DNA of 64,000 nt from Candidatus Poribacteria bacterium (GTDB taxonomy: Bacteria > Abyssobacteria > SURF-5): assembly GCA_016215705.1 (NCBI GenBank), contig JACRIR010000051.1, positions 7,771 to 71,770 on the forward strand, read 5' to 3'. Below are positions 26,535 to 44,887 of this stretch, piece by piece. Each line of letters begins with the position of its first letter. The first letter of the stretch is position 1. The position numbers and the translations under genes were made by a program. Under the pieces are notes generated by a model. It did no database searches, was not told where the DNA came from, and was given only the letters and a program-made list of their open reading frames with translations.

Positions 26535-26592
26535 AGTTCACGGTTCACGTTGAATCACGAAGAATCTGAGCGCCTAACGTCATTCTCACTTC
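26521..26592. repeat. composite repeat: family E (GTTCACGGTT/TGAATC) plus a family D fragment
   Basis: ggtccacggttcaaagttcacggttcacgttgaatcacgaagaatctgagcgcctaacgtcattctcac. Confidence 0.6.
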
Positions 26593-26914: not shown

Positions 26915-26955
26915 TTGACAAACCATCTTCACTTTGATACATTGAGAATGTATTC
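26915..26955 (+). promoter_or_regulatory. candidate tetR promoter with overlapping palindromic operator
   Basis: TTGACA (26915-26920), a 17-nt spacer, then TACATT. The inverted repeat ATACATT-gag-AATGTAT (26936-26955) overlaps the -10 element. Confidence 0.4.
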
Positions 26956-27035: not shown

Positions 27036-27659
27036 TTGCGAATGACGAGTGACCCCACCTTTGAACCTCTTGTCTCCGAAACGCGCGAGCGCATACTGCG
27101 AGCCGCGATGGAGCTCTTCCGCAAACACGGATTCAATAACACCTCCATAGCTCAGATTCTGCAGCACGCAAAGATCACCAAGGGCGGATTCTACTTCCAC
27201 TTCAAGAGCAAGGAAGAACTCGGATTCATAGTCCTCGAGCGCACCCGGGATTTCTGGATGGAGAATGTCATCGACGTAATCGCCCAGGAAGCCGGCGTCA
27301 GGCGCCGCATAAGCCGCATGGTTGAGATTATGACCGAGATGTATCGCGGCGACATCTTTCACGGTTGCGCGCTGCTTGCCGTGCTGACCGCCGAGATGAT
27401 GGAACATCCGACGGAATTCGCCGACCGCATAAGAAGCATAATAGCCGAATGGCAAAAGAGCATCATTGACATCCTTGAACAGGGCAAGACCGAAGGCATC
27501 TTCCGCAAGGATATGGATTCAAGCGCCTTGGCTCTGATTCTGATCGGATGCTGCCAGGGCACGACCATGATGGGACACCTTGACCCCGAAAACGTCAACT
27601 ACGACCTGCTTCTTCATGACCTCGAGAAATGGATTCTCGAGGGCTGCGCCCGACGCTGA
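27036..27659 (+). CDS. TetR/AcrR family transcriptional regulator
   Basis: 207 aa with the N-terminal HTH RILRAAMELFRKHGFNNTSIAQILQHAKITKGGFYFHF. Confidence 0.9.
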   Translation: MRMTSDPTFEPLVSETRERILRAAMELFRKHGFNNTSIAQILQHAKITKGGFYFHFKSKEELGFIVLERTRDFWMENVIDVIAQEAGVRRRISRMVEIMTEMYRGDIFHGCALLAVLTAEMMEHPTEFADRIRSIIAEWQKSIIDILEQGKTEGIFRKDMDSSALALILIGCCQGTTMMGHLDPENVNYDLLLHDLEKWILEGCARR

Positions 27660-27743
27660 AATGGCCATCTGACTGCGTCCTTGTCTGTCGTTCCGACACG
27701 GTCGGCATTCGTGCGCGCATGCTGGTGCCTGGTGGCCGCCTAC

Positions 27744-27786
27744 TTGACAACGAATGTTCATGTCCTGTATAATTCATCTTGTGAAT
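27744..27786 (+). promoter_or_regulatory. sigma70-like promoter plus candidate MarR operator
   Basis: TTGACA (27744-27749), an 18-nt spacer, then TATAAT (27768-27773). The inverted repeat ATTCA-N5-TGAAT (27772-27786) overlaps the -10 element. Confidence 0.5.
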
Positions 27787-27834
27787 AATTCGGGCCATGA
27801 AATACATAATCTCTCTCACTACCTTTGAGCAACT

Positions 27835-28284
27835 ATGATAACGCAAGACGCAGCCACAAGTTTTTGGAAAGCGTTCGACAAACTCATTCGTTCCTTCTCC
27901 TCGATGAACAACGTTTCCGGAATCATTGTCCTCGGCAAGCCGGATATCATTGCGCTTGAGGCTGTCTCCAGGAATGAGGGGCTCATTATGAGCGAGATGG
28001 CGCGGCTTCTGGAGATCAGGTTCAATACCGCAACGGGAATTGCTGACCGACTTGTTGAAAAGAAACTGTTAAAGCGCGAAGGAAAACATGGGGACAGGCG
28101 AGTAATTCGACTGTGTTTGACTGAAAAGGGCAGGAAAACCGTTACGGCTTATCAAAGGCATAGGGGAAAGTTTTTCAGGGAAATGATGGTCGCTCTTACG
28201 AAAAGTGAACAGGAAGCTTTTGTTTCTGTCCTCGTGAAAATCGCCGGCGTAATGGACAAGAAAAAAGGGGAAATGGCGAGGTGA
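27835..28284 (+). CDS. MarR family transcriptional regulator
   Basis: 149 aa winged HTH (MSEMARLLEIRFNTATGIADRLVEKKLLKREGKHGDRRVIRL). A 4-bp overlap with the downstream mutase gene indicates an operon. Confidence 0.85.
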   Translation: MITQDAATSFWKAFDKLIRSFSSMNNVSGIIVLGKPDIIALEAVSRNEGLIMSEMARLLEIRFNTATGIADRLVEKKLLKREGKHGDRRVIRLCLTEKGRKTVTAYQRHRGKFFREMMVALTKSEQEAFVSVLVKIAGVMDKKKGEMAR

Positions 28285-29957
28285 TGTCGATGTTCAGCGA
28301 AAAGTTTCTGGAAAGCCTCAAAGCGGAATACGGACGATGGGAGCAGAGTACTCTCAAGAAGATCCTTGATAAATATGGCATGACTTCGGATTCTATTCCC
28401 CGGCAGACATATACGCCGCTCGACATTGAGACGACCGACTTCTCGAATTGTGTCGGATTTCCGGGCGAGTTCCCGTTCACACGCGGAATCTACCCCACCA
28501 TGATAGTCGGAACAGGCATCGGAGGGCGGGCGTATTCCGGTTTCGGGAACCCGGAGGATACCCGCGACAGGCTCAGATTCTTGCTGTCGCAGGGACAGTT
28601 CGGCTTCAGCCTGGCCTTCGATCTGCCGACGCAGATAGGTCTCGATTCGGACCATCCGCTGGCGACCGGCGAGGTCGGCAGGGTAGGGGTGGCCCTCAGC
28701 TCACTGCAGGACATGGAGACTATTCTGTCGGCGTTCGACGGCGGCGCGCCTCTTGACAGAATTCGCTCCTCCTTTACGACCAACGCCCAGGCGGTTGTCG
28801 TCCTGTCGATGTACATCGCGATGGCGGAGAAACTGGGCATTCCCCTGAACCAGCTTACCGGCACGATTCAAAACGATATCTTGAAGGAATACATCGCGCG
28901 GGGCACATATATCTTCCCGCCAACACCCTCGATGCGTCTTACAGGGGACATCTTCGAGTTTTGCTCCAGGAATATGCCGCGGTTCAACATGATAAGCATT
29001 TGCGGGTATCACATACGCGAGGCGGGCGCTACCGCCTCGCAGGAATTGGCATTCATGTTGTGCAACGCCATCGCTTATTCGGAAGTGGCGCTCAAACGCG
29101 GACTCGGCCCGGACGACTTCCTCCCGAGATTCAGCTTCCTGTTCAGCAGCCACAGCAATTTCTTCGAGGAGGTTGCCAAATTCCGCGCTGCCCGCAGAAT
29201 GTGGGCAAAGATAGCGCGTGACCGGCTGGGCGCAAAGAAGACTGATTCGATGCGTTTCCGCGTTGCCTCCGGTTACGCGGGTTCCACGTTCACGGCGCAG
29301 AAACCTCTTAATAATATCGCGCGCGGCACGCTCGAATGTTTTGCGTCAATCATAGGCGGGAACATGGGGAGCGCCTCGGCGCCGTATGATGAAGCATTGG
29401 GATTGCCGACCGAAGAGGCCACCATAGTGGCGCTTGATACGCCTCGCATAATCCACTTCGAGGCGCGCGGCGCCGACGTGATAGACCCGCTCGGCGGCTC
29501 ATACTATGTCGAACATCTGACCGACGCCCTGGAAGCGCGCGCCACCGATCTCATCAACAAGGTCGACGCCCTGGGCGGAGCAGTCGCTGCAATTGAAAAG
29601 GGATTCATTCAGGCGGAGGTTGAAAGCAGTTCGTACAAGATGCAAAAGGAAATTGAGGAAGGGATGCGCCGGATTGTCGGAGTGAACGAGTTTGTAGGTG
29701 AGACGCCGCCATTGCATCCGATGGAATTGGCGTCAGACATCGAGGATCGCAGAATCCGTGCGCTCAGGCAGTTGCGTGCTGAACGCAACAACGCAGCGGT
29801 CGAGAAATGTTTGAACCGGGTTCGCGTCGCAGCCGAAGGAACAGAAAATCTTATTCCGTCTGTCATGGATGCGGTCAAGGCTATGGCCACCAACGGCGAG
29901 ATATGCGGCGTCCTAAGAGAAGTTTTCGGCGAAGCGCAACCGTTTACTTCGTACTAG
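28281..29957 (+). CDS. B12-dependent acyl-CoA mutase large (catalytic, CoA-binding) subunit, divergent methylmalonyl-CoA-mutase-like paralog lacking a fused B12 domain
   Basis: 558 aa. Substrate-barrel motifs [33 protein letters not shown] and [12 protein letters not shown] are conserved. GGRAYSGF replaces the canonical MCM motif RQYAGF. The MCM segment TQSLHTNS is replaced by NMGSASAPY. Confidence 0.85.
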   Translation: MMSMFSEKFLESLKAEYGRWEQSTLKKILDKYGMTSDSIPRQTYTPLDIETTDFSNCVGFPGEFPFTRGIYPTMIVGTGIGGRAYSGFGNPEDTRDRLRFLLSQGQFGFSLAFDLPTQIGLDSDHPLATGEVGRVGVALSSLQDMETILSAFDGGAPLDRIRSSFTTNAQAVVVLSMYIAMAEKLGIPLNQLTGTIQNDILKEYIARGTYIFPPTPSMRLTGDIFEFCSRNMPRFNMISICGYHIREAGATASQELAFMLCNAIAYSEVALKRGLGPDDFLPRFSFLFSSHSNFFEEVAKFRAARRMWAKIARDRLGAKKTDSMRFRVASGYAGSTFTAQKPLNNIARGTLECFASIIGGNMGSASAPYDEALGLPTEEATIVALDTPRIIHFEARGADVIDPLGGSYYVEHLTDALEARATDLINKVDALGGAVAAIEKGFIQAEVESSSYKMQKEIEEGMRRIVGVNEFVGETPPLHPMELASDIEDRRIRALRQLRAERNNAAVEKCLNRVRVAAEGTENLIPSVMDAVKAMATNGEICGVLREVFGEAQPFTSY

Positions 29958-29975
29958 TAGAGTGCTTCCTAAATA
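29955..29975. repeat. short repeat TAGT(A/G)GAGTGCTTCCTAAAT immediately after a stop codon
   Basis: Also found at 46325-46345, after the DUF374 gene. Confidence 0.5.
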
Positions 29976-30046
29976 AGATGCATTGATTCGGCTACGGTCT
30001 CCCCCTTCGCCTTCTCAATGTACACCCTGTATCCCGGGAGAATATT

Positions 30047-30850
30047 ATGAACGACAACCACATGCTGCTTGAAAAAGACGGCTACGTCGCCACCATAACC
30101 ATCAATCGACCCGATCAGCGCAACGCCATGCTGTCAATCATGTGGAAATGGCTCGGCGAAACGATGGATAAGCTAAGCGAAGACAACGACGTCAGGTGTG
30201 TTATCATCCGTGGCGCGGGCGACAAGGCGTTTGCGTCGGGAGCTGACATCTCAGAATTTGAGGTGTGGACCAGCCAGGAGAAAGCGCGGGAATATGGCGG
30301 CCGCATCGAATACGCCCTCCAGAGCATCGAGAAGCACAGAAACCCGGTGATTGCGATGATTCAGGGCTATGCCCTTGGCGCGGGCTGCGAGCTCGCGGTC
30401 GCCTGCGACCTCCGGATTCTCGCCGACGGCTCAAAAATCGGCATCCCGTCGGCAAAACTCGGCGTAATGCTGAATTACGAGAATTATCATAGAGTTGTCG
30501 ACCTGGTAGGCATCTCGATTGCGCGAGAAATATTCTTCCTGGGCCATCCCCTTGATGCGCAGCGCGCGAAAGAAGTCGGATTGGCCAATTTCGTTGTGCC
30601 CAAACCGGAACTGCAAACGTTCACTTGCGAGATCGCACGCGAGATTTCGGAAAATGCTCCGCTATCGGTGAGGGGAAGCAAGCGTGTTCTGCACGCATGC
30701 GCCGTGCACGGAATGCTTGATCGCGACCGCGACGCCGATGCGCTCGCGCAGCTCGATGACTTGAGCGCAGCTTGCTTCTTGAGCGAGGACGTGAAGGAGG
30801 GCGTAAGCGCCTTCTTCGGCCGCCGCAAGGCCGATTTCAAAGGGGAATGA
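30047..30850 (+). CDS. enoyl-CoA hydratase/isomerase (crotonase) family protein
   Basis: 267 aa with crotonase oxyanion and active-site segments (RGAGDKAFASGADI; GYALGAGCELAVACD). Confidence 0.85.
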   Translation: MNDNHMLLEKDGYVATITINRPDQRNAMLSIMWKWLGETMDKLSEDNDVRCVIIRGAGDKAFASGADISEFEVWTSQEKAREYGGRIEYALQSIEKHRNPVIAMIQGYALGAGCELAVACDLRILADGSKIGIPSAKLGVMLNYENYHRVVDLVGISIAREIFFLGHPLDAQRAKEVGLANFVVPKPELQTFTCEIAREISENAPLSVRGSKRVLHACAVHGMLDRDRDADALAQLDDLSAACFLSEDVKEGVSAFFGRRKADFKGE

Positions 30851-30894
30851 ACCAGGTTCACGGTTTACAGCCTACAGTTTACGGTTGAATCGAG
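30847..30894. repeat. family E repeat copy
   Basis: tgaaccaggttcacggtttacagcctacagtttacggttgaatcgagg. Confidence 0.5.
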
Positions 30895-31019
30895 GAGAAG
30901 CTGACAACTTTACCTTATTCCCTCGAAAGCGGGAATCCACGTTCGTGATGTCTCAGCGCACAAATCTGGATTCCTGCTTTCGCGGGAATGACGGTGAGGG
31001 TGTGGTAGGGAGATTACCG

Positions 31020-32348
31020 ATGAACATGACACGTGAACTCTGTGACGCAATTGAAAGGACTACTTTCGAGCAGATTCCGACTGACGCCATTGCGGAAGCG
31101 AAGCTCTGCCTGCTCGACTGGCTGGGCGTAACGCTAGGCGGCGCCCATGAGCCGCTCACGAAGATTCTTATGGAGATTGGCGACCTCGTCGGGGGCGAGA
31201 AGCAGTCCAGCATTGTCGGCCATGCGCGCAAGACCTCGATTCTGAACGCGGCCTTGATTAACGGCTCCGCGTCGCATGCGCTCGATTTCGATGACGTACA
31301 CTTCCAGATGATGGGTCATCCGACCGTGCCGGTCATGCCCGCGCTACTCTCATTGGCCGAAGTTCGAAAGAGCAGCGGGCGTGATGTTCTCACTGCATTT
31401 TTGCTCGGATTCGAGGCGGAGTGCAGAATCGGATCCTCAGTCTTCCCGTTTCATTACCAGCAAGGCTGGCATGCGACCTCGACAATCGGACGCTTCGGAG
31501 CAGCGGCCGCATGTTCAAAGTTGCTCGGCCTCGACGCGGCGCGCATGAGTTTCGGCCTTGGCGTGGCCGGCACACAAGCGGCCGGCCTCAAGCAGGTCTT
31601 CGGTACAATGTCCAAGCCGTTCCACGCCGGAAAAGCCGCGATGGATGGGCTTCTTGCGGCTTTGCTCGCCGAAAAAGGCTTCACTTGCTCCGAGGATATC
31701 ATTGCAGGCGAGGGCGGTTTCTGCAAAGTGCTCTCGCCGGACGCGAATCCTGAATTGATCATGCAGGACTTTGGCAAGACATACGCCATCGGGAACGTTA
31801 TGTTCAAGCGGCATGCCTCTTGTTTTGAGACGCATCCGACCATCGACGCGGCCCTCGATATTCGCAGTAAGGTGCGCGCGGACGATATCGCGGAAGTGCG
31901 AGTCTCCGCGGTTCCGGTCGCTCTCGAGATCGCCGGAAAAACTGAACCTAGCACCGGTCTCGAAGGCAAGTTCAGCCTTGCCTATTGCGCTGCGCTTGCA
32001 CTCGTCGACGGCGAGACGGGTGAAGACCGTTTCTCGGATGAAAATGTTCTGAGCGATCAACTGGTCGCAATGCGCAAGAAGATAACAGTGACCCCTGACG
32101 AACAACTCGGCTTGACACAAGCGGAAATCACCGTGCGGATGCGCGACGGTCGCCAATTGAAGAGCAGCGCCGACACGCTCGAGTCCGGCTCAAACAAAGA
32201 AAAGCGAAAAGCCGACCTTGTTCGGAAGTTCCGCTCTTTCGCCGAACGGCTCCTTCCGCCAGGCAGGGCGGATGCCATAATTAGATTTGTCGAGAACATG
32301 GAAGCGCAGAAGAACGTGGCAAAACTCTTAGCCCTCTGCCGTCCATGA
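31020..32348 (+). CDS. MmgE/PrpD family protein (2-methylcitrate dehydratase / cis-aconitate decarboxylase superfamily)
   Basis: The ORF extends to 30885, but ATG 31020 has a GGGAG RBS 6 nt upstream, and the extension covers a repeat or hairpin region. PrpD-family motifs are present throughout (GSASHALDFDD, HPTVPV). Confidence 0.8.
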   Translation: MNMTRELCDAIERTTFEQIPTDAIAEAKLCLLDWLGVTLGGAHEPLTKILMEIGDLVGGEKQSSIVGHARKTSILNAALINGSASHALDFDDVHFQMMGHPTVPVMPALLSLAEVRKSSGRDVLTAFLLGFEAECRIGSSVFPFHYQQGWHATSTIGRFGAAAACSKLLGLDAARMSFGLGVAGTQAAGLKQVFGTMSKPFHAGKAAMDGLLAALLAEKGFTCSEDIIAGEGGFCKVLSPDANPELIMQDFGKTYAIGNVMFKRHASCFETHPTIDAALDIRSKVRADDIAEVRVSAVPVALEIAGKTEPSTGLEGKFSLAYCAALALVDGETGEDRFSDENVLSDQLVAMRKKITVTPDEQLGLTQAEITVRMRDGRQLKSSADTLESGSNKEKRKADLVRKFRSFAERLLPPGRADAIIRFVENMEAQKNVAKLLALCRP

Positions 32349-32373
32349 TATTGGACGGCGTGCTGTGGAGGCG

Positions 32374-32414
32374 CTTATTCGGGGACATCATGCCGCATGG
32401 TGTTGCCGAATGAG
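32374..32414. repeat. REP-like palindrome family A, copy 3
   Basis: cttattcggggacatcatgccgcatggtgttgccgaatgag. Confidence 0.7.
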
Positions 32415-32460
32415 CGGCTGCGGCGCGGTCCCCGCTTAGCAACCAAACAAAGGAGCCAAA

Positions 32461-33654
32461 ATGCAGAAAATTCTCGAAGGCGTCAGGATACTCGACCTCT
32501 CACGCATGCTCGCGGGCCCATATGGCTCCATGCTTCTCGGAGACCTCGGCGCAGAAGTCATTAAAATCGAAGAACCCGGCAGCGGTGACCTCACCCGGAC
32601 AACTTCCGCTCAGGCCGCTCTTCGGGGCATCAGCGCATACTTTCTGAGCATCAATCGAAGCAAGAAGAGCGTTACGCTGAATATGAAGACCGAAAAAGGG
32701 CGCGCCATCTTCTACGAACTCGTCAAGAAGGCTGATGTTGTCTACGACAACTTCCGGCCGGATGCTCTCGAGAGGCTCGGATGCACATATGAGATTCTTT
32801 CAAAACACAACCCCGGAATTATTTGCTGTTCGGTATCGGCATTCGGACACGACGGTCCCTATCGCGACCTGCCCGCATACGATGTCATTCTTCAGGCAAT
32901 CGGCGGCACAATGGGCCTTACAGGACCCGAAGGCGGCGACCCGGTTCTGATGGGAGTGCCGATGGGCGACCTTGGCGGCGGCATTTTCGGGGCGCTCGCG
33001 ATATCAGCGGCGCTTTACAATCGTGAGAAAACCGGCTGCGGCCAGAAGCTGGATATCAGTCTGCTCGACAGCCAGATATCGTTGCTGGTCTACATGGCGC
33101 AAACTTACATAGCCAACGGACAGGTTCCTAAGCCCCGCGGCACAATGCACCCGCTGATCGCCCCTTTCCGTGCGTTCAAAACAAGGGACGGCCACATTGC
33201 GGTGGTCGCTTTCCAGGATAAATTCTTTGAGAGCTTTTGCCGGATAATCGAACGCGAAGACCTCCTGACCGATGAACGGTTTGACAACTTGATTAATCGC
33301 GCTTTGAACAAGACTGAGTTGTATGCTATATTGGATACGATTTTCCCGAGAAAAACGACCGCTGAGTGGCTTGCGCCGTTGCGTGAAGCTCAAATTCCCT
33401 CGGGTCCCGTGAACGACATCAAGGATGCCTTGAATGATATCCAGGTGCGACACAGAAAGATGGTTGTCGAGATTGACCACCCCGAAATCGGGCGCTACGA
33501 GGCTCTGGGGAATCCTATAAAATCGTCGGCGATGCACGATGGCGAATTCATGCCGCCGCCTGCGCTTGGCCAACATACGGACGAAGTGCTCGGCGCGCTG
33601 GCCGGTCTTTCGGCCGATGAGATCAAGTCTTTGCGCAATGAAGGCGTGATCTGA
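32461..33654 (+). CDS. CoA transferase family III (CaiB/BaiF family)
   Basis: 397 aa. The N-terminus ILEGVRILDLSRMLAGPYGSMLLGDLGAEVIKIE is the hallmark of family III CoA-transferases. Confidence 0.85.
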   Translation: MQKILEGVRILDLSRMLAGPYGSMLLGDLGAEVIKIEEPGSGDLTRTTSAQAALRGISAYFLSINRSKKSVTLNMKTEKGRAIFYELVKKADVVYDNFRPDALERLGCTYEILSKHNPGIICCSVSAFGHDGPYRDLPAYDVILQAIGGTMGLTGPEGGDPVLMGVPMGDLGGGIFGALAISAALYNREKTGCGQKLDISLLDSQISLLVYMAQTYIANGQVPKPRGTMHPLIAPFRAFKTRDGHIAVVAFQDKFFESFCRIIEREDLLTDERFDNLINRALNKTELYAILDTIFPRKTTAEWLAPLREAQIPSGPVNDIKDALNDIQVRHRKMVVEIDHPEIGRYEALGNPIKSSAMHDGEFMPPPALGQHTDEVLGALAGLSADEIKSLRNEGVI

Positions 33655-33665
33655 TATCCCCTAGG

Positions 33666-33686
33666 TCGGGGACATCACGCCGATCT
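33666..33686. repeat. REP-like palindrome family A, partial copy 4
   Basis: gtcggggacatcacgccgatc. Confidence 0.45.
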
Positions 33687-33753
33687 CTTAGCACACTTTT
33701 TCATAAATACGGTGACGAATAAACTCTAAGCTCTGAACCCCAAACCAGATATC

Positions 33754-34170
33754 TTGGGAGGACATGAGGGTATGCCTGAAAAGAAAATACGAGTGTTGGT
33801 TGCCAAGCCCGGTCTTGACGGCCACGACCGCGGCGCAAAAGTCATTGCGCGCGCGCTCCGCGACGCCGGAATGGAAGTCATTTACACTGGTCTTCGTCAA
33901 ACCCCTGAGCAGATCGTTTCTGCGGCTTTGCAGGAGGACGTGGACGTGATAGGTCTGAGCGTCCTTTCGGGCGCTCATATGGGACTGACTCAGAAAATCA
34001 TAGCCAGGCTCAAAGAGCAAAATGCCGGCGACAAAATGGTGCTGGTGGGGGGAACCATCCTCGCAAAAGATATCCCTAAGTTGAAAGATATGGGTGTTGC
34101 CGAAGTCTTTCCGACGGGCAGTCGCCTCGAAGAACCGATCAAATTTATCAAAGAACGACTCGGAAACTGA
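33754..34170 (+). CDS. cobalamin B12-binding domain protein (acyl-CoA mutase small subunit)
   Basis: 138 aa. The DxHxxG motif is present in [22 protein letters not shown]. SxL and GG motifs are also present, giving the classic MCM C-terminal domain. Confidence 0.85.
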
Positions 34171-34233
34171 TGGGCAGTGGCGCAGGTCTTTCCATGTGAC
34201 GGCACTCAGTCGCGTATACCATGCAGCGTGGCG

Positions 34234-34277
34234 TTTATTCGGGTACACCATGTCGCATGGGGTGTCCCCGAATAGAC
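34234..34277. repeat. REP-like palindrome family A, copy 5
   Basis: tttattcgggtacaccatgtcgcatggggtgtccccgaataga. Confidence 0.7.
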
Positions 34278-34377
34278 GCTCATCGTGTCCCAGAGTAAAT
34301 GTGGTTTCTCAGGAGCGCCTGACCGCACATAACGTGGTTAATTGTAGAGGAAAGGTGGAGCGAGGGGAATTAACGTG

Positions 34378-34550
34378 ATTTCATGCTGAGCGAAGCGAAG
34401 AATCTCTTTTCTTGGCTTCCTTCCCTTTCGCCATTCGTCTCTTTCTTAAGGAGGCATAACCCGTGCCTGAACACAGTCGAAGTCACCTGAATCCTAAACC
34501 ATGAACCGTGAACTATGAACCATGAACCCTAAACCCTAAACCCTGAACCA
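34378..34550. repeat. composite repeat: family D copy (tcatgctgagcgaagcgaagaatctc) plus family E (tgaaccgtgaac, ctaaaccc x3)
   Basis: gatttcatgctgagcgaagcgaagaatctcttttcttgg, then cctgaatcctaaaccatgaaccgtgaactatgaaccatgaaccctaaaccctaaaccctgaacc. Confidence 0.6.
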
Positions 34551-34567
34551 ACCAAAGGTGCGAACAC

Positions 34568-35644
34568 ATGCCTGAAATAAGAAAACTTGATATCGACACC
34601 CCCGCTCTTCTCATTGACCTCGACAGAATGGAACATAACATCAAGAAGATGGCAAGTTTCTTCGATATGCAGTTCTCCAACTTGAGGCCGCACACAAAGA
34701 CCCATAAATGTCCCGTCCTGGCGCACAAACAGCTTCAGGCAGGCGCTCAAGGGATAACGTGCGCAAAATTGGGCGAAGCAGAGGTAATGGCCGCCGCAGG
34801 CATACGGGATATCCTTATCGCCAACCAGATAGTGGGCCCCGACAAAATCGCGCGTCTGGCAAATCTCGCCCGACATTGCGACATCATGGTGGCCGTCGAA
34901 TCTCGCCACAATGTCGCAGACCTCTCCATGGCGGCGAGGCATGCGGGCTCCACTATTCGCATTCTCATCGAGGTCGATGTCGGAATGCACCGGTGCGGCG
35001 TGAAGAGCCCGGAAGAAGCGGTCTCGCTTGCTCAAAAGATTCTGGAAAGCCCGGGGCTGCAATTCGAGGGCATCATGGGTTACGAGGGCCACGCGGTAAT
35101 GATTCCGGAACTCGACGACCGGCGACAGGCCTGTCTCAAGTCGATGCAAGTCCTGATAGGCGCCAGAGATGCCCTGCTGAAGAGCGGAATCGAAGTGAAG
35201 ATTGTAAGCGCAGGCGGAACCGGAACGTACAACATCGCAGGTTCGTACCCGGGAGTAACGGAAATCCAGGCGGGCTCCTACATACTCATGGATGCAAAAT
35301 ATCGAAGCGTGCTGCAGGATTTTGAATCGGCCCTCACAATCCTTTCTACGGTCACGAGTCGGCCCGACAAGGAAACAGCGATCCTCGACGCGGGCATGAA
35401 GGCGATGACGTTTGAATTCGGGATGCCGGAGCTTGTCGGAGTCGCCGGCGCCGCCGTCTCTTTCCTCTCCGAGGAACACGGCCACCTGTATCTTGAGGAT
35501 GCGGACCCCCAGGTGGGTGAAAAAGTCGAGCTCATTCCCAGTCATTGCTGCACAACCATCAATCTCCATGACCGCTTTTACGCCGTTCGCGGAGATCGTC
35601 TGGAGGCCGTCTGGTCTGTTGCCGGCCGCGGCAAATTCGCGTAG
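34568..35644 (+). CDS. alanine racemase N-terminal domain protein, DSD1 family PLP-dependent enzyme (D-serine dehydratase / D-threonine aldolase / D-3-hydroxyaspartate dehydratase-like)
   Basis: 358 aa. PLP-lysine segment LRPHTKTHKCPVLAHKQ. Fold-type III barrel plus a C-terminal domain. Confidence 0.75.
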   Translation: MPEIRKLDIDTPALLIDLDRMEHNIKKMASFFDMQFSNLRPHTKTHKCPVLAHKQLQAGAQGITCAKLGEAEVMAAAGIRDILIANQIVGPDKIARLANLARHCDIMVAVESRHNVADLSMAARHAGSTIRILIEVDVGMHRCGVKSPEEAVSLAQKILESPGLQFEGIMGYEGHAVMIPELDDRRQACLKSMQVLIGARDALLKSGIEVKIVSAGGTGTYNIAGSYPGVTEIQAGSYILMDAKYRSVLQDFESALTILSTVTSRPDKETAILDAGMKAMTFEFGMPELVGVAGAAVSFLSEEHGHLYLEDADPQVGEKVELIPSHCCTTINLHDRFYAVRGDRLEAVWSVAGRGKFA

Positions 35645-35729: not shown

Positions 35730-35758
35730 TTGACAAACATAGATATGTGTGGTATAAT
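35730..35758 (+). promoter_or_regulatory. consensus sigma70 promoter with no downstream protein-coding gene on its strand
   Basis: TTGACA (35730-35735), a 17-nt spacer, then TATAAT (35753-35758). Confidence 0.55.
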
Positions 35759-37877: not shown

Positions 37878-37920
37878 AAGGAATGCTGATGCTCCCCCTG
37901 TTGAATTTGTCCAACAATCG

Positions 37921-40980: not shown

Positions 40981-42531
40981 ATGTCGACTTTCGAGCAGAT
41001 CGATAAACTTAAGAAACTCCAGGAGCAGGCGCTCATGGGGGGTGGTGAGGAACGCATCAAGGAGCAACATGAAAAGGGTAAACTCACTGCCCGCGAAAGA
41101 ATTGATATGCTCTTAGATAAGGGTTCTTTCACAGAGTTGGGCGCATTTGTTACACATAAATGCGCACACTTCGGAATGGAGAAAAGAAAATATCTCGGCG
41201 ACGGAATCGTTACCGGCTATGGCGCTATTGCCGGACGGCAGGTGTATGTCTTTGCGCATGATTTCACCGTCGTCGGAGGCACTCTCGGCCACGCATTTGC
41301 AGAAAAAACGTGCAGACTAATGGAATTGGCGATGCGCAACGGCGCACCCGTCATCGGCCTGAACGACTCCGGTGGAGCGCGCATCCAGGAAGGCGTCGAA
41401 AGCCTTGCCGGATATGCAGACATATTCTTGCGCAATACGCTGGCCTCGGGCGTCATCCCGCAAATATCGGTCATTCTGGGTCCGTGCGCGGGCGGCTCGG
41501 TGTATTCTCCCGCGCTGACGGATTTCATCTTCATGGTCGACAACACGAGTTACATGTTCATAACCGGTCCCGAAGTGATCAAAGCGACCACCTACGAGGA
41601 AGTCACCAAGGAAGACCTTGGGGGGTCGCATACCCATTCGACCCGGAGCGGTGTTTGCCATTTCGCGATGCCCGATGAGACCAGTTGCTTTGACGCCATA
41701 CGCGAGCTCTTGTCATACGTTCCTCAGAACAACATCGAGGAACCTCCGTTCGTGCCGACTGCCGATCCGCCTGACCGCGCGGACGAATCGTTGAACTCAA
41801 TCATTCCTGACAATCCAAAGGAATCATATGACATGTACAAAGTCATTCGCTCGGTTGCGGATGACGGCCGTTTCTTGGAAGTCCATGCCGGGTTCGCGCG
41901 CAACATAATCGTGGGTTTCGCTCGACTTGGAGGACGGTCCGTCGGCATTGTGGCAAATCAGCCGATGGCGCTGGCCGGCTGCCTCGACATAAATGCGTCC
42001 GTTAAAGCAGCCCGGTTCGTACGGTTCTGCGATGCGTTCAACATCCCGATAGTTACCTTCGAGGATGTGCCGGGGTTCCTGCCGGGCACAGCCCAGGAAT
42101 TCGGCGGGATAATCGTTCATGGCGCGAAACTCTTGTACGCTTACTGCGAAGCTACCGTGCCCCGTGTTACCGTTATCACCCGCAAGGCCTATGGCGGCGC
42201 ATACTGCGTGATGTCGTCTAAACATGTGCGGTGCGACATCAATTATGCATGGCCCTCAGCCGAGATCGCCGTAATGGGTCCTGACGGAGCCATCAATATC
42301 GTCTTTCGGAAAGAACTCGCCGAGGCAAAAGACCGCGAAGAGGCCCGCAAAAAGCTGCTCGAGGACTATAAGGAGAAGTTTGCGAGTCCGTACATCGCCG
42401 CCGAACTCGGATATGTGGACGAAGTAATCGAACCCGGGATGACGCGGGTGAAGCTAATAAGAGCGCTTGAGTCGCTCCGGAATAAACGCGATACAAATCC
42501 ACCCAAGAAACACGGGAATATTCCCCTGTGA
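40981..42531 (+). CDS. acyl-CoA carboxylase carboxyltransferase subunit (propionyl-CoA carboxylase beta / methylmalonyl-CoA decarboxylase alpha / transcarboxylase 12S family)
   Basis: 516 aa with both CT half-domains ([14 protein letters not shown]; [16 protein letters not shown]; [17 protein letters not shown]). Confidence 0.9.
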
Positions 42532-42593
42532 CTTTCGACCTTCGACCGTGCGATGACATGGGTTTTGGCTGCGGCTACACCGCGTCGTGAGAT

Positions 42594-43082
42594 GTGAGGC
42601 CTTTCGTTGTGAAGAAACTGGAGTTGCTGGTCAACGGGAAATCGTATAATGTGGAAGTAATCCGGACCGGCGGCGAAGTCGCTCGTGTGATCGTAAATGG
42701 CTCGCCATACGACGTCGTCATCAAGGACCTGCCGGAAGGGCATTTCCCGCAGGTGAGGACCACGGCCGAGAAGGCTGCGCAAGCCGCTGCTGTCGGTTTT
42801 CCACCCGCGCAGATGAAACATGAGTTCGCGGCCGCCGAAGGCGTTACCGTCGTAAAGTCGCCTCTCCCCGGCCTCATCCTCGACGTCAAGACGGGCGTAG
42901 GAGACTCAGTAAATGCCGGTGACACACTTGTCGTCATCGAAACCATGAAAATGGAGAATAATGTCGTATCGCCTGTTTCGGGTGTGGTCAAAGAAATCAA
43001 AGTCTCGAAAGACCAAACCGTGAACGAAGGGGTTCCTCTCATAGTCATCGGTCCCCTTTCCCCCTTTATTGTGAACGACTGA
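42594..43082 (+). CDS. biotin carboxyl carrier / biotin-requiring subunit (MmdC/OadG-like N-terminus plus biotinyl domain)
   Basis: Biotinyl-lysine motif IETMKMEN within LVVIETMKMENNVVSPVSGVVKEIKV. Confidence 0.8.
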   Translation: MRPFVVKKLELLVNGKSYNVEVIRTGGEVARVIVNGSPYDVVIKDLPEGHFPQVRTTAEKAAQAAAVGFPPAQMKHEFAAAEGVTVVKSPLPGLILDVKTGVGDSVNAGDTLVVIETMKMENNVVSPVSGVVKEIKVSKDQTVNEGVPLIVIGPLSPFIVND

Positions 43083-43170
43083 CCACGCCTTTGGTGTGAT
43101 TAACTGTGAAAGGAAGGCTCGTTGCGCTATGGTCATGCGGGTGGAGAGTAGCAATCTCTTCATCTTTGCT

Positions 43171-43215
43171 TTTCCCCTTTCGCCTTTGACCTTTCGCCTT
43201 TCGCCTTCCTTGGGA
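43171..43215. repeat. CTTTCGCC-motif repeat (family F), copy 2, directly upstream of the mutase RBS
   Basis: ttttcccctttcgcctttgacctttcgcctttcgccttccttggg. Confidence 0.5.
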
Positions 43216-43222
43216 GACGACT

Positions 43223-44887
43223 ATGAACATGGAAGAGCTTGGAAAACTACACAAGCAGTGGGAAGAAAAAACTCTGGGCAAGGTTTTGAGCAAGTTCCCC
43301 GAGCGATCAAACAAGTTCCAAACCGACTCCGGCATCGAACTTCGCCGCGTGTACTCACCCCTCGATCTTGACGACGTCGACTACCAGAGGGAACTGGCCT
43401 TTCCGGGCGAGTATCCCTATACGCGCGGAATTCAGCCGACCATGTATCGCGGCCGCCTTTGGACAATGCGCCAATATGCCGGCTTTGCCAACGCGCGGGA
43501 ATCGAATCGTCGTTACCGCTTCCTGCTTGAGCACGGACAAACGGGCCTGAGCATCGCGTTCGATCTGCCCACTCAGATAGGCTACGATTCCGATCATCCC
43601 CTGGCCGATGGGGAAGTCGGCAAGGTCGGCGTCGTCATCGATTCTTTGAGAGACGTCGAAATCCTTTTCGACCAGATTCCTCTCGATAAGGTGACGACCT
43701 CGATGACAATCAATTCGACTGCCGCGATCTTGCTTGCCATGTATGTGGCGCTTGCGAAGAAACGGGGGACCCCGCTCGACAAACTCGGTGGCACGATACA
43801 GAACGATATCCTCAAGGAATACGTTGCTCGCGGGACACACAGGTTTCCGATAAATCCCTCGATGCGCCTAGTAACCGACACTTTTAAATACTGCACGAAG
43901 AATCTGCCCCGTTGGAACATGATCAGCATCAGCGGGTATCACATACGCGAGGCGGGCTCCACGGCAGTCCAGGAAGTAGCCTTCACCCTTGCGAATGCGA
44001 TTGCCTACGTGCAAGCCGCAGTTGACGCCGGCCTCGATGTCGACGACTTTGCCGGACGCCTTTCGTTCTTCTTCAATTCGCATAACAACTTTTTTGAAGA
44101 AATTGCGAAATTCCGGGCCGCGAGGCGACTGTGGGCTCGCATTGTGAGAGACCGTTTCCATGCGAAGAAACCCGGCTCGGAAATGCTTCGCTTTCATACG
44201 CAGACCGCCGGATGCACGCTCACCGTTCAGCAATATGAGAACAACGTCGTGCGCGTGGCTTTCCAGGCGTTGGCAGCCGTGCTGGGCGGAACGCAATCGC
44301 TTCATACCAACTCGAGGGATGAGGCTCTGTGCCTGCCGACCGAGGAATCCGTCCGGTTGGCGCTGCGCACCCAGCAGCTGATTGGTTACGAGAGCGGTGT
44401 CGCCGATGTCGTCGACCCGCTGGGCGGCTCCTACTTCATTGAGCGTCTTACATCCGAGATCGAAAAGGCCGCAGCCGACTACATTCAAAAGATCGACTCG
44501 ATGGGCGGTTCGATCTCTGCGATCAAAAACGCCTATCTGCAAAAGGAAATCCAGGATAGTTCATACAGGTATCAGCAAGCAATCGAGAGCGGCGAAAAAG
44601 TAATTGTGGGAGTCAATAAGTTCCAGACCGAAGAGCCGCCTCCGGAGAAACTGCTCGAGGTCGATCCGAAAACACAGGCCGAGCAAATCGAAGGGCTGAA
44701 AAAAGTGCGCGCCGAGCGAGACAACGCTTCCGCGCAAGCATCGCTCGAGCGCCTGCGGGAAGCCGCATCGGGCGACGTTAACCTCATGGAGCCCATAATC
44801 GAGTGCGTCGAGAGATATGTAACCCTTGGTGAGATATGCTCAACGCTGGCGCAGGTTTTTGGAGAAGCGGCCGAAACCAATCCGTAG
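43223..44887 (+). CDS. methylmalonyl-CoA mutase large subunit (catalytic domain only, canonical)
   Basis: 554 aa. The canonical MCM substrate residues are present (RQYAGF Tyr, VARGTH Arg, [16 protein letters not shown]). No fused B12 domain. Confidence 0.9.

What the first reader, a model, noticed from the sequence alone, without database searches (positions are those of the whole stretch)
27036..35644. Regulator-linked operon built around a divergent B12-dependent acyl-CoA mutase
The cluster contains, in order:
- TetR and MarR regulators.
- A mutase large subunit (28281-29957).
- A crotonase.
- An MmgE/PrpD-family protein.
- A family-III (CaiB/BaiF) CoA-transferase.
- The stand-alone B12-binding subunit.
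- A DSD1-type PLP enzyme.

All genes are on the + strand, and marR overlaps the mutase start by 4 bp. A canonical MCM with carboxyltransferase and biotin carrier lies elsewhere (40981-44887). This mutase therefore looks dedicated to a different, regulated catabolic route. The input may be a branched or hydroxy dicarboxylate, for example an itaconate, mesaconate, citramalate or methylsuccinate-type substrate activated by the CoA-transferase. The PLP enzyme hints at a D-amino or hydroxy-amino acid. I cannot map this combination onto a described pathway.
Basis: partly seen in the sequence, partly recalled or inferred. Interest (0 to 1): 0.7.

Follow-up and report, generated by a model that had tools for sequence, protein, structure and literature searches.

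The report
Divergent B12 mutase, substituted-succinate operon
An uncultured subsurface bacterium carries a regulated gene cluster in which an unusual vitamin-B12 enzyme sits with an epimerase-type enzyme, a CoA-transferase and a decarboxylase-like enzyme. The same combination recurs in other phyla and probably forms an undescribed oxygen-free route for breaking down methylsuccinate-like acids.

Summary

**The mutase large subunit** keeps the carboxylate and radical residues of methylmalonyl-CoA mutase (MCM): Tyr89, Arg207, Tyr243 and His244. It replaces 26 positions that are invariant in canonical MCM, and nearly all of these are also kept in the HCM and ICM-like sequences compared. With Thermodesulfobacteriota and Bacillota relatives it forms a clade with 99% bootstrap support.

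**Gene linkage.** MmgE/PrpD genes lie within 10 kb of 6 of 18 divergent mutases. They lie near 0 of 150 canonical MCM or ICM/HCM-like mutases.

**The partner enzymes:**
- The PrpD protein has the full His/Tyr two-base set of iminodisuccinate epimerase and of the methylsuccinate isomerase characterised in 2025.
- The crotonase lacks the second hydratase glutamate, as does methylmalonyl-CoA decarboxylase.

**Best reading.** A chiral 2-substituted succinate, with methylsuccinate favoured, is epimerised, CoA-activated, rearranged by the mutase and then decarboxylated. No step has been tested by experiment.

**Caveats:**
- The PLP gene is conserved only among close relatives.
- The single B12 subunit in the window is probably shared with the canonical mutase.

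I found no described pathway with this gene set.

The parts
26915..26952 (+). Promoter-like site (10/12 match) and a 7-3-7 palindrome, ATACATTgagAATGTAT, overlapping its -10 hexamer, upstream of tetR. Likely a TetR autoregulatory operator (inferred).
   Evidence: Promoter scan; sequence read directly.
27036..27659 (+). TetR-family regulator.
   Evidence: PF00440 and TetR_C_13. Conserved at this position in L001, L002 and L090.
27744..27773 (+). Perfect sigma-70 consensus promoter (TTGACA-18-TATAAT, 12/12) between tetR and marR. Candidate promoter of the marR-mutase transcription unit.
   Evidence: This is a consensus match only; function was not tested.
27835..28284 (+). MarR-family regulator, translationally coupled to the mutase gene.
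   Evidence: PF01047. The MarR + mutase pair is present in the window, L001 and L002, and absent together in L090.
28281..29957 (+). Divergent AdoCbl acyl-CoA mutase large subunit ('group A'). The likely start is ATG 28290.
   Evidence: - PF01642, 591 bits.
- Motifs TMIVGTGIGGRAYSGF, RVASGYAGSTFT and GGNMGSASAPYD replace the canonical [16 protein letters not shown], [12 protein letters not shown] and [14 protein letters not shown].
- Only 8 clusters at 77-90% identity, then 57% or less.
30047..30850 (+). Crotonase-fold enzyme that lacks the second catalytic glutamate of enoyl-CoA hydratases. Proposed decarboxylase of the substituted malonyl-CoA.
   Evidence: - PF00378.
- GAGCEL is kept, but IPSAKLG stands where hydratases have PE(I/V)xLG.
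- The same loss is seen in all seven mutase-linked crotonases compared.
30917..30988 (.). REP-like inverted repeat in the crotonase-PrpD spacer. It inflates the PrpD ORF at its 5' end.
   Evidence: Self-hit on the opposite strand; sequence.
31020..32348 (+). MmgE/PrpD-family protein of the epimerase (two-base) type. Proposed 2-substituted-succinate epimerase.
   Evidence: - PF03972 and PF19305.
- Best solved relatives are B. subtilis 'IRG1' and IDS epimerase.
- H85, D88, H99, Y145, H150, K198 and K266 (IDS-epimerase numbering) are all present.
32461..33654 (+). Family-III (CaiB/BaiF) CoA-transferase. Proposed to activate the dicarboxylate.
   Evidence: - PF02515, 428 bits.
- Best solved relative is succinate-hydroxymethylglutarate CoA-transferase, 309 bits.
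- Below every NCBIfam equivalog cut-off.
- PrpD-CoAT adjacency is conserved in L001, L002, L089 and L090.
33754..34170 (+). B12-binding small subunit of the mutase (DGHDRG = DxHxxG motif). The likely start is ATG 33772. It is the only such gene in the window and is probably shared with the canonical large subunit at 43223-44887.
   Evidence: PF02310 and TIGR00640, 161 bits; sequence; no second copy. It keeps this position in L089 and L090, which lack the group-A large subunit.
34568..35644 (+). DSD1/D-threonine-aldolase-type PLP enzyme. Its membership in the module is doubtful.
   Evidence: - PF01168 and PF14031.
- D-threonine aldolase 260 bits and D-3-hydroxyaspartate aldolase 229 bits.
- Conserved after the B12 gene only in close relatives L001, L002 and L090.
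- Absent from L089, L091, L175, L176 and L177.
- 397-bp gap upstream.
40981..44887 (+). Context: carboxyltransferase, biotin carrier and the canonical MCM large subunit. This locus has no small subunit, MeaB or epimerase in the window.

Best explanation
The cluster is a regulated catabolic module for a chiral 2-substituted succinate. Methylsuccinate is the favoured candidate; it is the product of anaerobic itaconate or mesaconate reduction.

Proposed steps:
1. The MmgE/PrpD protein epimerises the free acid to the stereoisomer that the next enzyme accepts.
2. The family-III CoA-transferase makes the CoA thioester.
3. The divergent AdoCbl mutase (large subunit plus the small B12 subunit) carries out the 1,2-shift of the thioester group. 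This turns the substituted succinyl-CoA into a substituted malonyl-CoA: ethylmalonyl-CoA or dimethylmalonyl-CoA, depending on which carboxyl carries the CoA.
4. The crotonase-fold protein, which lacks the hydratase's second glutamate, decarboxylates that product to a plain acyl-CoA (butyryl- or isobutyryl-CoA). This acyl-CoA can return its CoA to the next substrate molecule or enter beta-oxidation.

TetR and MarR would keep the genes off until the acid appears. The logic is that of the E. coli Sbm (succinate to propionate) operon, extended by an epimerase.

Shown here: the gene set, its conservation across phyla, the remodelled mutase active-site motifs, the epimerase-type residues in PrpD, and the missing glutamate in the crotonase.

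Inferred: every catalytic step, the substrate, the direction of flux, and co-transcription.
For: **Mutase**
- It keeps the Tyr89, Arg207, Tyr243 and His244 equivalents, so a carboxylated acyl-CoA is expected (established MCM knowledge).
- It replaces 26 positions that are invariant in 11 canonical MCMs, and nearly all of these are also conserved in the HCM and ICM-like sequences. They include the HxQT and GGTQSLHTN motifs.
- Groups A, B and the L176 type form one clade with 99% bootstrap support, apart from canonical MCM, HCM (4r3u) and ICM-like sequences.

**Gene linkage**
- The same four genes co-occur in Thermodesulfobacteriota at 44-54% identity (L091-L093, L175).
- Variants occur in a Bacillota MAG, where a CoA ligase stands in place of the CoA-transferase, with PrpD, mutase, B12 subunit, MeaB, crotonase and carboxyltransferase (L176).
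- A deltaproteobacterial three-gene operon reads mutase-PrpD-B12 (L177).
- L128 carries a family-I CoA-transferase, mutase, PrpD and a thioesterase.
- In 160 loci chosen only by mutase similarity, a PrpD gene lies within 10 kb of 6/18 divergent mutases and 0/150 canonical or ICM/HCM-like ones. Fisher p = 6.5e-7, or 6e-5 when counted as four lineages.

**PrpD**
- The PrpD genes of all the mutase-linked clusters, including the window's, carry H85, D88, H99, Y145, H150, K198 and K266. A remote 23%-identical homologue at L049 does not.
- PMC12290011 shows that a PrpD-family protein next to a family-III CoA-transferase is an (S)-(R)-methylsuccinate isomerase. It acts on the free acid through this His/Tyr pair and feeds a stereoselective CoA-transferase.

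**Crotonase**
- All seven mutase-linked crotonases keep the first glutamate and have lost the second, as has methylmalonyl-CoA decarboxylase.
- The L091 orthologue scores 212 bits on the MMCD model, against a cut-off of 257.

**Regulation**
- A perfect sigma-70 consensus promoter precedes marR-mutase.
Against: - No enzyme here has been assayed, and the substrate is inferred from neighbours and residues only.
- The PrpD protein is only about 35% identical to an acyl-CoA-dehydrogenase-linked (methylsuccinate-isomerase-type) homologue. The published isomerases are always next to a methylsuccinyl-CoA dehydrogenase, which is absent here. It is therefore not an orthologue.
- The crotonase is below the MMCD cut-off (164 against 257 bits) and lacks MMCD's His66 and Tyr140 at the aligned positions. 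That alignment uses an MMCD sequence written from memory.
- Close relatives L090 and L089 keep PrpD-CoAT-B12 without the divergent large subunit. The module may therefore also work with, or originally have worked with, the ordinary mutase.
- The Thermodesulfobacteriota clusters add TctABC transporters, two isocitrate/isopropylmalate-dehydrogenase-family genes, a flavoprotein and a CitE-like lyase. These could point to a tricarboxylate or another substrate.
- Intergenic gaps of 89-169 bp mean co-transcription is not shown.
- No ECM, PCM or IaaG reference sequence was available for comparison.
Confidence: 0.5

Rival explanations
1. It is simply a second methylmalonyl-CoA mutase isozyme in an Sbm-like succinate-to-propionate module. 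The CoA-transferase makes succinyl-CoA, the mutase makes methylmalonyl-CoA, and the crotonase decarboxylates it to propionyl-CoA. The PrpD protein would be unrelated, or tied to methylcitrate metabolism.
For: - The Tyr89, Arg207, Tyr243 and His244 equivalents are kept.
- The gene set resembles the E. coli sbm-ygfG-ygfH operon (established knowledge).
- L089 and L090 keep PrpD-CoAT-B12 without the divergent large subunit.
- There is only one small subunit for two large subunits in the window.
Against: - Twenty-six positions invariant in canonical MCM, and nearly all also conserved in the HCM and ICM-like sequences, are replaced.
- All 130 canonical MCM genes in the comparison set keep the HxQT and SLHTN-type motifs used to define the class, and none has a PrpD neighbour.
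- The genome already has a canonical large subunit 13 kb away.
- An epimerase-type PrpD has no role with achiral succinate.
- The NCBIfam MCM equivalog scores 494 bits against a cut-off of 876.
Confidence: 0.13
2. Same reaction logic, but the substrate is a tricarboxylate or another polar substituted succinate. Examples are tricarballylate or an aconitate-, citrate- or isocitrate-derived acid. The mutase would convert, for example, tricarballylyl-CoA to 2-carboxyglutaryl-CoA, and decarboxylation would give glutaryl-CoA.
For: - The Thermodesulfobacteriota clusters carry TctCBA tripartite tricarboxylate transporters, a TcuA-like or flavocytochrome-like flavoprotein with an Fe-S protein, two isocitrate/isopropylmalate-dehydrogenase-family genes and a CitE-like lyase.
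- The clade gains invariant Arg/Lys residues (N120R and G417R/K in human MCM UniProt numbering, the chain index + 10).
- Group B1 has further Arg residues in the remodelled motifs.
Against: - Tricarballylate is achiral, so an epimerase would be pointless.
- The window's own cluster has no Tct transporter, flavoprotein or dehydrogenase.
- Tct/Bug transporters also carry dicarboxylates (general knowledge).
- No literature precedent was found.
Confidence: 0.15
3. The module degrades hydrocarbon-derived alkylsuccinates, the fumarate-addition products. The steps would be CoA activation, epimerisation, carbon-skeleton rearrangement by a mutase, then decarboxylation, as proposed for anaerobic alkane degraders.
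For: - The four proposed steps of that pathway match the four enzyme types here (established pathway proposals).
- The IaaGH/IaaL phenylsuccinyl-CoA mutase and CoA-transferase pair is a precedent (PMC8360864).
- L176 adds a CoA ligase, an acyl-CoA dehydrogenase and a carboxyltransferase.
- Relatives of the host are reported from subsurface and hydrocarbon-affected sites.
Against: - No glycyl-radical alkylsuccinate synthase was found in the window or the related loci (and the gene tables).
- The only hydrocarbon marker reported for Abyssubacteria is AhyA, not fumarate addition.
- The best solved relative of the CoA-transferase acts on short dicarboxylates.
Confidence: 0.1
4. Itaconate-centred reading. 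The PrpD protein is a cis-aconitate decarboxylase that makes itaconate, and the divergent mutase is an MCM variant that tolerates itaconyl-CoA, a known suicide inactivator of MCM.
For: Cis-aconitate decarboxylases are among the solved relatives of the PrpD protein (121-131 bits). The CoA-transferase resembles SUGCT and mesaconate CoA-transferases. MCM inactivation by itaconyl-CoA is established knowledge.
Against: - The PrpD protein carries Tyr145. PMC12290011 assigns this residue to the epimerases and not to cis-aconitate decarboxylase.
- That paper also states that the B. subtilis 'IRG1' has no shown decarboxylase activity.
- The window cluster has no hydratase or lyase for itaconyl-CoA.
Confidence: 0.05
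5. The genes are merely neighbours without a shared pathway.
For: Intergenic gaps are 89-397 bp. Gene content varies among relatives.
Against: The PrpD-mutase linkage recurs in at least five lineages and is statistically strong.
Confidence: 0.03

Closest known systems
E. coli Sbm operon (scpA/sbm mutase, argK/meaB, scpB/ygfG methylmalonyl-CoA decarboxylase, scpC/ygfH CoA-transferase)
   Same: It uses the same reaction logic: a CoA-transferase, an AdoCbl acyl-CoA mutase and a crotonase-fold decarboxylase convert a succinate-type acid to a shorter acyl-CoA plus CO2. The crotonase here shares with MMCD the loss of the second hydratase glutamate.
   Different: - The mutase here is split into two subunits and remodelled in its active site.
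- The CoA-transferase is family III, not family I.
- No MeaB gene lies in the window.
- An epimerase-type PrpD gene and two regulators are added.
- The crotonase scores below the MMCD cut-off.
Itaconate/methylsuccinate cluster of Pseudomonas aeruginosa and Cupriavidus necator (PA0881 methylsuccinate isomerase + PA0882 itaconate CoA-transferase; PMC12290011)
   Same: An MmgE/PrpD protein with the His/Tyr two-base set lies next to a family-III CoA-transferase that acts on C5 dicarboxylates. In that system the epimerase works on the free acid to feed a stereoselective transferase.
   Different: - Downstream chemistry there is an acyl-CoA dehydrogenase, a hydratase and citramalyl-CoA lyase, a route that passes electrons to the respiratory chain. 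Here it is a B12 mutase plus a decarboxylase-like crotonase.
- The PrpD protein here is only about 35% identical to an ACAD-linked homologue.
- The hosts are different phyla.
Ethylmalonyl-CoA mutase (Ecm/MeaA) and the ECM-like MatB/ActD hexylmalonyl-CoA mutases
   Same: These are AdoCbl mutases that interconvert alkylmalonyl-CoA and alkylsuccinyl-CoA and keep a carboxylate-binding site (established knowledge; PMC5719088). This is the reaction type proposed here.
   Different: No ECM reference sequence could be obtained, so the relationship was not tested. As I recall (not checked here), Ecm/MeaA is a single fused polypeptide that works in acetate assimilation. The actinomycete enzymes lie in biosynthetic clusters with a crotonyl-CoA carboxylase/reductase, and none is reported with a PrpD-family partner.
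IaaGH phenylsuccinyl-CoA/benzylmalonyl-CoA mutase with IaaL CoA-transferase (Aromatoleum aromaticum; PMC8360864)
   Same: A mutase paired with a succinyl-CoA-dependent CoA-transferase acts on a 2-substituted succinate.
   Different: - The substituent there is aromatic.
- The product is oxidatively decarboxylated by an acyl-CoA dehydrogenase, not by a crotonase.
- There is no PrpD partner.
2-Hydroxyisobutyryl-CoA mutase (HcmAB, PDB 4r3u)
   Same: It is the best solved-structure match (445 bits, against 383 for human MCM) and has the same split large/small subunit architecture.
   Different: HCM has Ile and Gln where this protein keeps Tyr89 and Arg207. HCM keeps the HxQT and GGAQSLHTN motifs that this protein has lost. 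The two do not cluster together in the tree.

Membership tests
AdoCbl-dependent acyl-CoA mutase (large + small subunit) | Large-subunit TIM-barrel domain (PF01642 / TIGR00641) | tested here: met
   PF01642 scores 591 bits over residues 41-550. TIGR00641 scores 600 bits against a cut-off of 304.
AdoCbl-dependent acyl-CoA mutase (large + small subunit) | B12-binding domain with the DxHxxG base-off/His-on motif | tested here: met
   PF02310 scores 91 bits. TIGR00640 scores 161 bits against a cut-off of 57. The motif DGHDRG is in the sequence.
AdoCbl-dependent acyl-CoA mutase (large + small subunit) | AdoCbl-dependent 1,2-rearrangement activity | not testable with these tools
   Needs an enzyme assay.
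Methylmalonyl-CoA mutase in the strict sense | Carboxylate-binding Tyr89 and Arg207, plus Tyr243 and His244 (P. shermanii numbering) | tested here: met
   RAYSGF, ARGTY and GYHIRE are present.
Methylmalonyl-CoA mutase in the strict sense | Invariant motifs TMYxxRxWTxRQYAGF, RxHxQT and GGTQSLHTN, which line the CoA and substrate channel | tested here: not met
   All three motifs are replaced. Twenty-six canonical-invariant positions differ.
Methylmalonyl-CoA mutase in the strict sense | Score above the curated NCBIfam equivalog cut-off | tested here: not met
   NF006944 scores 494 bits against a cut-off of 876. The model describes the fused enzyme, so this test is weak on its own.
Isobutyryl-, 2-hydroxyisobutyryl- and pivalyl-CoA mutases | Phe or Ile at position 89 and Gln at position 207 | tested here: not met
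   Tyr and Arg are kept. ICM-like sequences in the comparison set show RMFAGF and AQKE. HCM shows RQIAGF and AQKE.
Ethylmalonyl-CoA mutase | Clustering with Ecm/MeaA reference sequences and their signature motifs | not tested
   No reference sequence or open paper could be retrieved.
MmgE/PrpD family, epimerase/isomerase type | Both family domains, the conserved carboxylate-binding residues, and the His99 + Tyr145 two-base pair | tested here: met
   PF03972 and PF19305. H85, D88, H99, Y145, H150, K198 and K266 are all present. The criteria come from PMC12290011.
(S)-(R)-Methylsuccinate isomerase (PA0881 orthologues) | The gene lies next to a methylsuccinyl-CoA dehydrogenase gene (stated as always the case in PMC12290011) | tested here: not met
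   There is no acyl-CoA dehydrogenase in the cluster. Identity to an ACAD-linked homologue is about 35%.
2-Methylcitrate dehydratase PrpD | Score above the NCBIfam equivalog cut-offs | tested here: not met
   Scores are 35-48 bits against cut-offs of 458-950.
Family-III CoA-transferase | CoA_transf_3 domain over the full length | tested here: met
   PF02515 scores 428 bits over residues 5-373. No substrate-specific equivalog cut-off is reached.
Enoyl-CoA hydratase (crotonase in the strict sense) | Both catalytic glutamates (Glu144 and Glu164, rat enzyme numbering) | tested here: not met
   The first glutamate is present (GAGCEL). The second is replaced by Ser (IPSAKLG where hydratases have PE(I/V)xLG).
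Methylmalonyl-CoA decarboxylase (ScpB/YgfG) | Score above the equivalog cut-off, and the His66 and Tyr140 carboxylate contacts | tested here: not met
   NF008506 scores 164 bits against a cut-off of 257. The aligned positions are Ala and Leu in the window protein (the MMCD sequence was written from memory). The shared feature is the loss of Glu164, so this is a resemblance, not membership.

The most novel reading that the evidence does not exclude
Groups A, B and the L176 type are a previously unrecognised specificity class of AdoCbl acyl-CoA mutases. They work together with MmgE/PrpD-type epimerases in an anaerobic, redox-neutral pathway that converts methylsuccinate, the reduction product of itaconate or mesaconate, to butyryl- or isobutyryl-CoA plus CO2. 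This would supply the missing anoxic sink for itaconate-derived C5 dicarboxylates. If the C4 thioester is the substrate, it would also add a new reaction to B12 chemistry: methylsuccinyl-CoA to dimethylmalonyl-CoA.
Probability: 0.25. Interest if true: 0.8.

Novelty: new variant of a known kind. Interest (0 to 1): 0.66.

Why it matters
**Enzymology.** Only a handful of acyl-CoA mutase specificities have been characterised: MCM, ICM/IcmF, HCM, ECM, PCM and a few secondary-metabolism cases. This clade keeps the carboxylate anchor but rewrites residues that are otherwise invariant, so it is a strong candidate for a new substrate.

**A search handle.** The repeated pairing with an epimerase-type MmgE/PrpD protein was not mentioned in any paper I could search. 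It gives a practical way to find such enzymes, and it assigns a probable role to part of the large uncharacterised MmgE/PrpD family.

**Ecology.** The 2025 study of methylsuccinate isomerase states that no itaconate-fermenting bacteria are known, and that reduction to methylsuccinate seems to be the main anaerobic fate of itaconate. A B12-dependent route in subsurface anaerobes would show where that carbon goes next.

**Application.** A mutase plus decarboxylase that turns branched C5 diacids into C4 acyl-CoAs would interest pathway engineers.

Tried and rejected
- **Metagenome scan.** I used an alignment of group A and B mutases. The tool chose generic patterns ([16 protein letters not shown]) and returned almost only canonical or ICM-like mutases. 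It still served as an unbiased control set and yielded the L110/L113/L128 type.
- **Genome-collection scan.** It found only one species representative with the group-A gene. This is the same contig as L001.
- **Exhaustive representative search.** When rerun, groups A and B appeared under a single 50%-identity representative (P0017). This indicates a narrow clade but gives no gene contexts.
- **Papers on mutase specificity residues.** They are not held in the library. P. shermanii and human residue numbering therefore rests on my own knowledge, checked only against the alignment.
- **ECM, PCM and IaaG reference sequences.** None could be obtained. The plasmid search gave only generic annotations.
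- **Rfam at gathering thresholds.** It found no cobalamin or other riboswitch in the window.
- **Inverted-repeat tool.** It found nothing in the regulatory spacers. The palindrome at the tetR promoter was seen by eye.
- **First tree script.** It timed out and was redone with numpy.
- **PrpD as cis-aconitate decarboxylase.** Rejected because Tyr145 is present.
- **PLP enzyme as part of the conserved module.** Rejected because it is absent outside close relatives.
- **Structure prediction.** Not run. The tools return no coordinates or ligand pockets, so it could not have settled the substrate.

Full report
**1. What is there**

- TetR, 27036-27659.
- MarR, 27835-28284.
- Acyl-CoA mutase large subunit, 28281-29957.
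- Crotonase, 30047-30850.
- MmgE/PrpD protein, within ORF 30885-32348.
- Family-III CoA-transferase, 32461-33654.
- MCM-type B12-binding small subunit, 33754-34170.
- Ala_racemase_N/D-ser_dehydrat PLP enzyme, 34568-35644.

Downstream lie selB and selA on the other strand, a CHRD protein, and then a carboxyltransferase, a biotin carrier and a second mutase large subunit at 40981-44887.

Homologue lengths and the local sequence suggest later starts for three genes:
- Mutase at ATG 28290.
- PrpD at ATG 31020.
- Small subunit at ATG 33772.

A perfect sigma-70 consensus promoter sits between tetR and marR. No riboswitch was found. The nearest relatives are MAGs labelled Candidatus Abyssubacteria, Hydrogenedentota, Lindowbacteria or Poribacteria. 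The host is therefore an uncultured lineage, probably anaerobic.

**2. The mutase is divergent**

The two large subunits in the window are 49% identical. The one at 43223 has every canonical MCM motif. The one at 28281 keeps the Tyr89, Arg207, Tyr243 and His244 equivalents, which in MCM hold the substrate carboxylate and handle the radical (established knowledge). Three canonical motifs are replaced:

| Canonical MCM | Window mutase at 28281 |
|---|---|
| [16 protein letters not shown] | TMIVGTGIGGRAYSGF |
| [12 protein letters not shown] | RVASGYAGSTFT |
| [14 protein letters not shown] | GGNMGSASAPYDEA |

A column-by-column comparison found 26 positions that are invariant in 11 canonical sequences. 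Nearly all of them are also conserved in the HCM and ICM-like sequences, yet they are replaced in the clade. They include human His350, Gln352, Gln383, His386, Thr387 and Asn388 (UniProt numbering, which is the chain index + 10). As I recall, several of these are sites of disease mutations in human MCM.

The Phe/Gln and Ile/Gln signatures of ICM and HCM are absent. The best solved match is HCM (445 bits), but the two do not group together in the tree.

**3. How widespread it is**

Only eight 90%-identity clusters are 77-90% identical to the window protein ('group A'). Identity then drops to 57% or less. The next relatives ('group B', mostly Thermodesulfobacteriota) share RARYSGF and ...PYDEA, but their other remodelled motifs differ.

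A neighbour-joining tree with 200 bootstraps gives these supports:
- Group A: 100%.
- Groups B1 + B2: 100%.
- Groups A + B + a Bacillota type (L176/P0253): 99%.

This clade lies apart from canonical MCM, HCM and ICM-like sequences. In a library clustered at 50% identity, groups A and B appear under a single representative (P0017). The same search shows many other unnamed divergent mutase lineages.

**4. The gene neighbourhood is conserved**

Among close relatives:
- L001 (90% identical) and L002 (82%) repeat the order TetR-MarR-mutase-crotonase-PrpD-CoAT-B12-PLP. L002 has a sirtuin and a third kind of mutase large subunit inserted before the B12 gene.
- L090 has TetR-crotonase-PrpD-CoAT-B12-PLP, without MarR and without the mutase.
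- L089 has only PrpD-CoAT-sirtuin-B12.

Two conclusions follow. MarR plus the large subunit behaves as a unit that is gained or lost together. The small-subunit gene stays in place regardless of the divergent large subunit. It is also the only one in the window, and the canonical large subunit has none of its own, so it is probably shared.

Across phyla:
- Thermodesulfobacteriota contigs L091-L093 and L175 carry GntR, Iso_dh, a group-B mutase, CoAT, TctCBA, crotonase, a flavoprotein, PrpD, an Fe-S protein, a CitE-like lyase and Iso_dh. Identity to the window proteins is 44-54%.
- A Bacillota MAG (L176) has a CoA ligase, PrpD, mutase, B12 subunit, MeaB, crotonase and carboxyltransferase.
- A deltaproteobacterial contig (L177) has a three-gene unit, mutase-PrpD-B12.
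- L128 has a family-I CoA-transferase, mutase, PrpD and a thioesterase.
- All of these mutases are non-canonical in the same motifs.

In 160 loci chosen only by mutase similarity, a PrpD gene lies within 10 kb of 6 of 18 divergent mutases. It lies near 0 of 130 canonical and 0 of 20 ICM/HCM-like ones. Fisher p is 6.5e-7, or 6e-5 when counted as four lineages.

**5. What the partners are**

*PrpD protein.* Its best solved relatives are IDS epimerase and the B. subtilis 'IRG1'. It is far below the 2-methylcitrate dehydratase cut-offs.

Gonner et al. 2025 (PMC12290011) showed that the PrpD-family protein next to the family-III itaconate CoA-transferase in Pseudomonas and Cupriavidus is an (S)-(R)-methylsuccinate isomerase. 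According to that paper:
- It acts on the free acid, not on the CoA ester.
- It uses a His/Tyr two-base mechanism shared with IDS epimerase.
- Cis-aconitate decarboxylase uses one base.

The PrpD genes of all the mutase-linked clusters, including the window's, carry H85, D88, H99, Y145, H150, K198 and K266. A remote 23%-identical homologue at L049 does not. The window protein is not an orthologue of the published isomerase. It is about 35% identical to an ACAD-linked homologue, and no acyl-CoA dehydrogenase lies next to it.

*CoA-transferase.* It most resembles succinate-hydroxymethylglutarate (glutarate), oxalate, formyl- and mesaconate CoA-transferases. It reaches no equivalog cut-off.

*Crotonase.* It keeps the first catalytic glutamate but has Ser where hydratases have the second one. 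The same loss occurs in all seven mutase-linked crotonases and in methylmalonyl-CoA decarboxylase. The MMCD sequence in that alignment was written from memory.

*PLP enzyme.* It is D-threonine-aldolase-like. It is conserved only in close relatives and sits behind a 397-bp gap.

**6. Most likely mechanism**

PrpD-family enzymes act on 1,4-dicarboxylates substituted at C2 (PMC12290011). The mutase keeps a carboxylate anchor. The crotonase looks like a decarboxylase. The simplest pathway that uses all four enzymes is therefore:

2-substituted succinate → (epimerase) → the correct stereoisomer → (CoA-transferase) → substituted succinyl-CoA → (mutase) → substituted malonyl-CoA → (crotonase) → acyl-CoA + CO2.

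This is the Sbm-operon logic with an epimerase added. It also mirrors the steps proposed for alkylsuccinates in anaerobic alkane degraders, and the IaaL/IaaGH pair.

Methylsuccinate is the favoured substrate for three reasons:
- The PrpD/CoA-transferase precedent.
- The short-chain affinities of the CoA-transferase.
- The paper's remark that methylsuccinate forms under anoxic conditions while no anaerobic degradation route is known.

The Thermodesulfobacteriota clusters add a fumarate-reductase-type flavoprotein and a CitE-like lyase. These would fit reduction and cleavage branches of itaconate-type acids. They would equally fit a tricarboxylate substrate.

My confidence is about 0.5 for the general mechanism and about 0.25 for methylsuccinate specifically. 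Every catalytic step is inferred.

**7. Comparison with what is known, and novelty**

The parts belong to known families, and each half of the scheme has a precedent: PA0881/PA0882 for the first two steps, and Sbm/YgfG or ECM for the last two. The following appear to be undescribed in the literature I could search:
- The combination of the four enzymes.
- This specific mutase clade, with its rewritten channel residues.
- The systematic PrpD-mutase linkage.

I rate it a new variant of a known kind.

The main gaps are that no ECM, PCM or IaaG sequences could be compared, and that nothing has been tested by experiment.

Noticed in passing
window 26521-26549 (- strand sense), 33734-33746, 34488-34550, 47441-47467: Tandem heptamer arrays (TGAACCN / TAAACCN) lie 0-80 bp upstream of the start codons of several unrelated genes: DUF4350, the B12 subunit, the PLP enzyme and a penicillin amidase. 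The two-unit pattern occurs 18 times, against 4.9 expected by chance. One copy in the opposite orientation follows the crotonase stop (30855-30867). Their function is unknown; they may be a leader or UTR element.
   Followed up: partly
window 43159-43207: A different heptamer array (TTTCGCC, about 5 copies) lies directly upstream of the canonical mutase large-subunit start at 43223.
   Followed up: no
window 30917-30988: A REP-like inverted repeat (CGAAAGCGGGAATCCA ... TGGATTCCTGCTTTCG) lies in the crotonase-PrpD spacer. It translates to the 'RKRES ... FRGNDG' type of pseudo-peptide and extends the PrpD ORF artificially by 45 codons.
   Followed up: partly
window 35730-35758 (+): A second perfect sigma-70 consensus promoter (TTGACA-17-TATAAT with an extended TG) lies between the PLP gene and the convergent selB gene. 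It falls inside a 93-codon ORF with no family match. It might drive a small RNA or an antisense transcript to selB.
   Followed up: no
window 40981-45455: The canonical MCM large subunit sits with a carboxyltransferase and a biotin carrier. It has no small subunit, MeaB chaperone or methylmalonyl-CoA epimerase anywhere in the 64 kb. Its motif ARGTHRFP also departs slightly from the usual ARGTYIFP.
   Followed up: partly
L002 15337-17852; L089 12615-13382: In relatives, a SIR2-family deacylase gene lies between the CoA-transferase and the B12 subunit. In L002 it is followed by a third kind of mutase large subunit in which Tyr243 is Cys (SIASCHIRDA) and HxQT is AAGV. A sirtuin next to enzymes that make reactive dicarboxylyl-CoAs might remove stray lysine acylation; this is speculation.
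   Followed up: no
window 55889-59137: A short-chain dehydrogenase is followed by two HGD-D genes (2-hydroxyacyl-CoA dehydratase or benzoyl-CoA-reductase type). A similar HGD-D pair plus an activator lies beside a group-B1 mutase in L006 and L007.
   Followed up: no
window 35943-39760 and 49764-52004: selB and selA (selenocysteine incorporation) lie right after the cluster. A molybdopterin oxidoreductase lies 10 kb further on and could be a selenoprotein. No tRNA-Sec or SECIS search was done.
   Followed up: no
proteins P0245-P0294; loci L014, L017, L037 and others: The 50%-identity library holds many further mutase lineages with altered active-site motifs. Examples are a Chloroflexota type (RTHxQTGG / GGVQSxALSC) and types that lack Tyr243 or His244. 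Most have no described function. Several lie near family-III CoA-transferases.
   Followed up: partly
window 9703-11202: A B12-binding radical-SAM protein is embedded in a lipopolysaccharide/heptose gene group: a lipid A acyltransferase, two heptosyltransferases and a PfkB/cytidylyltransferase.
   Followed up: no
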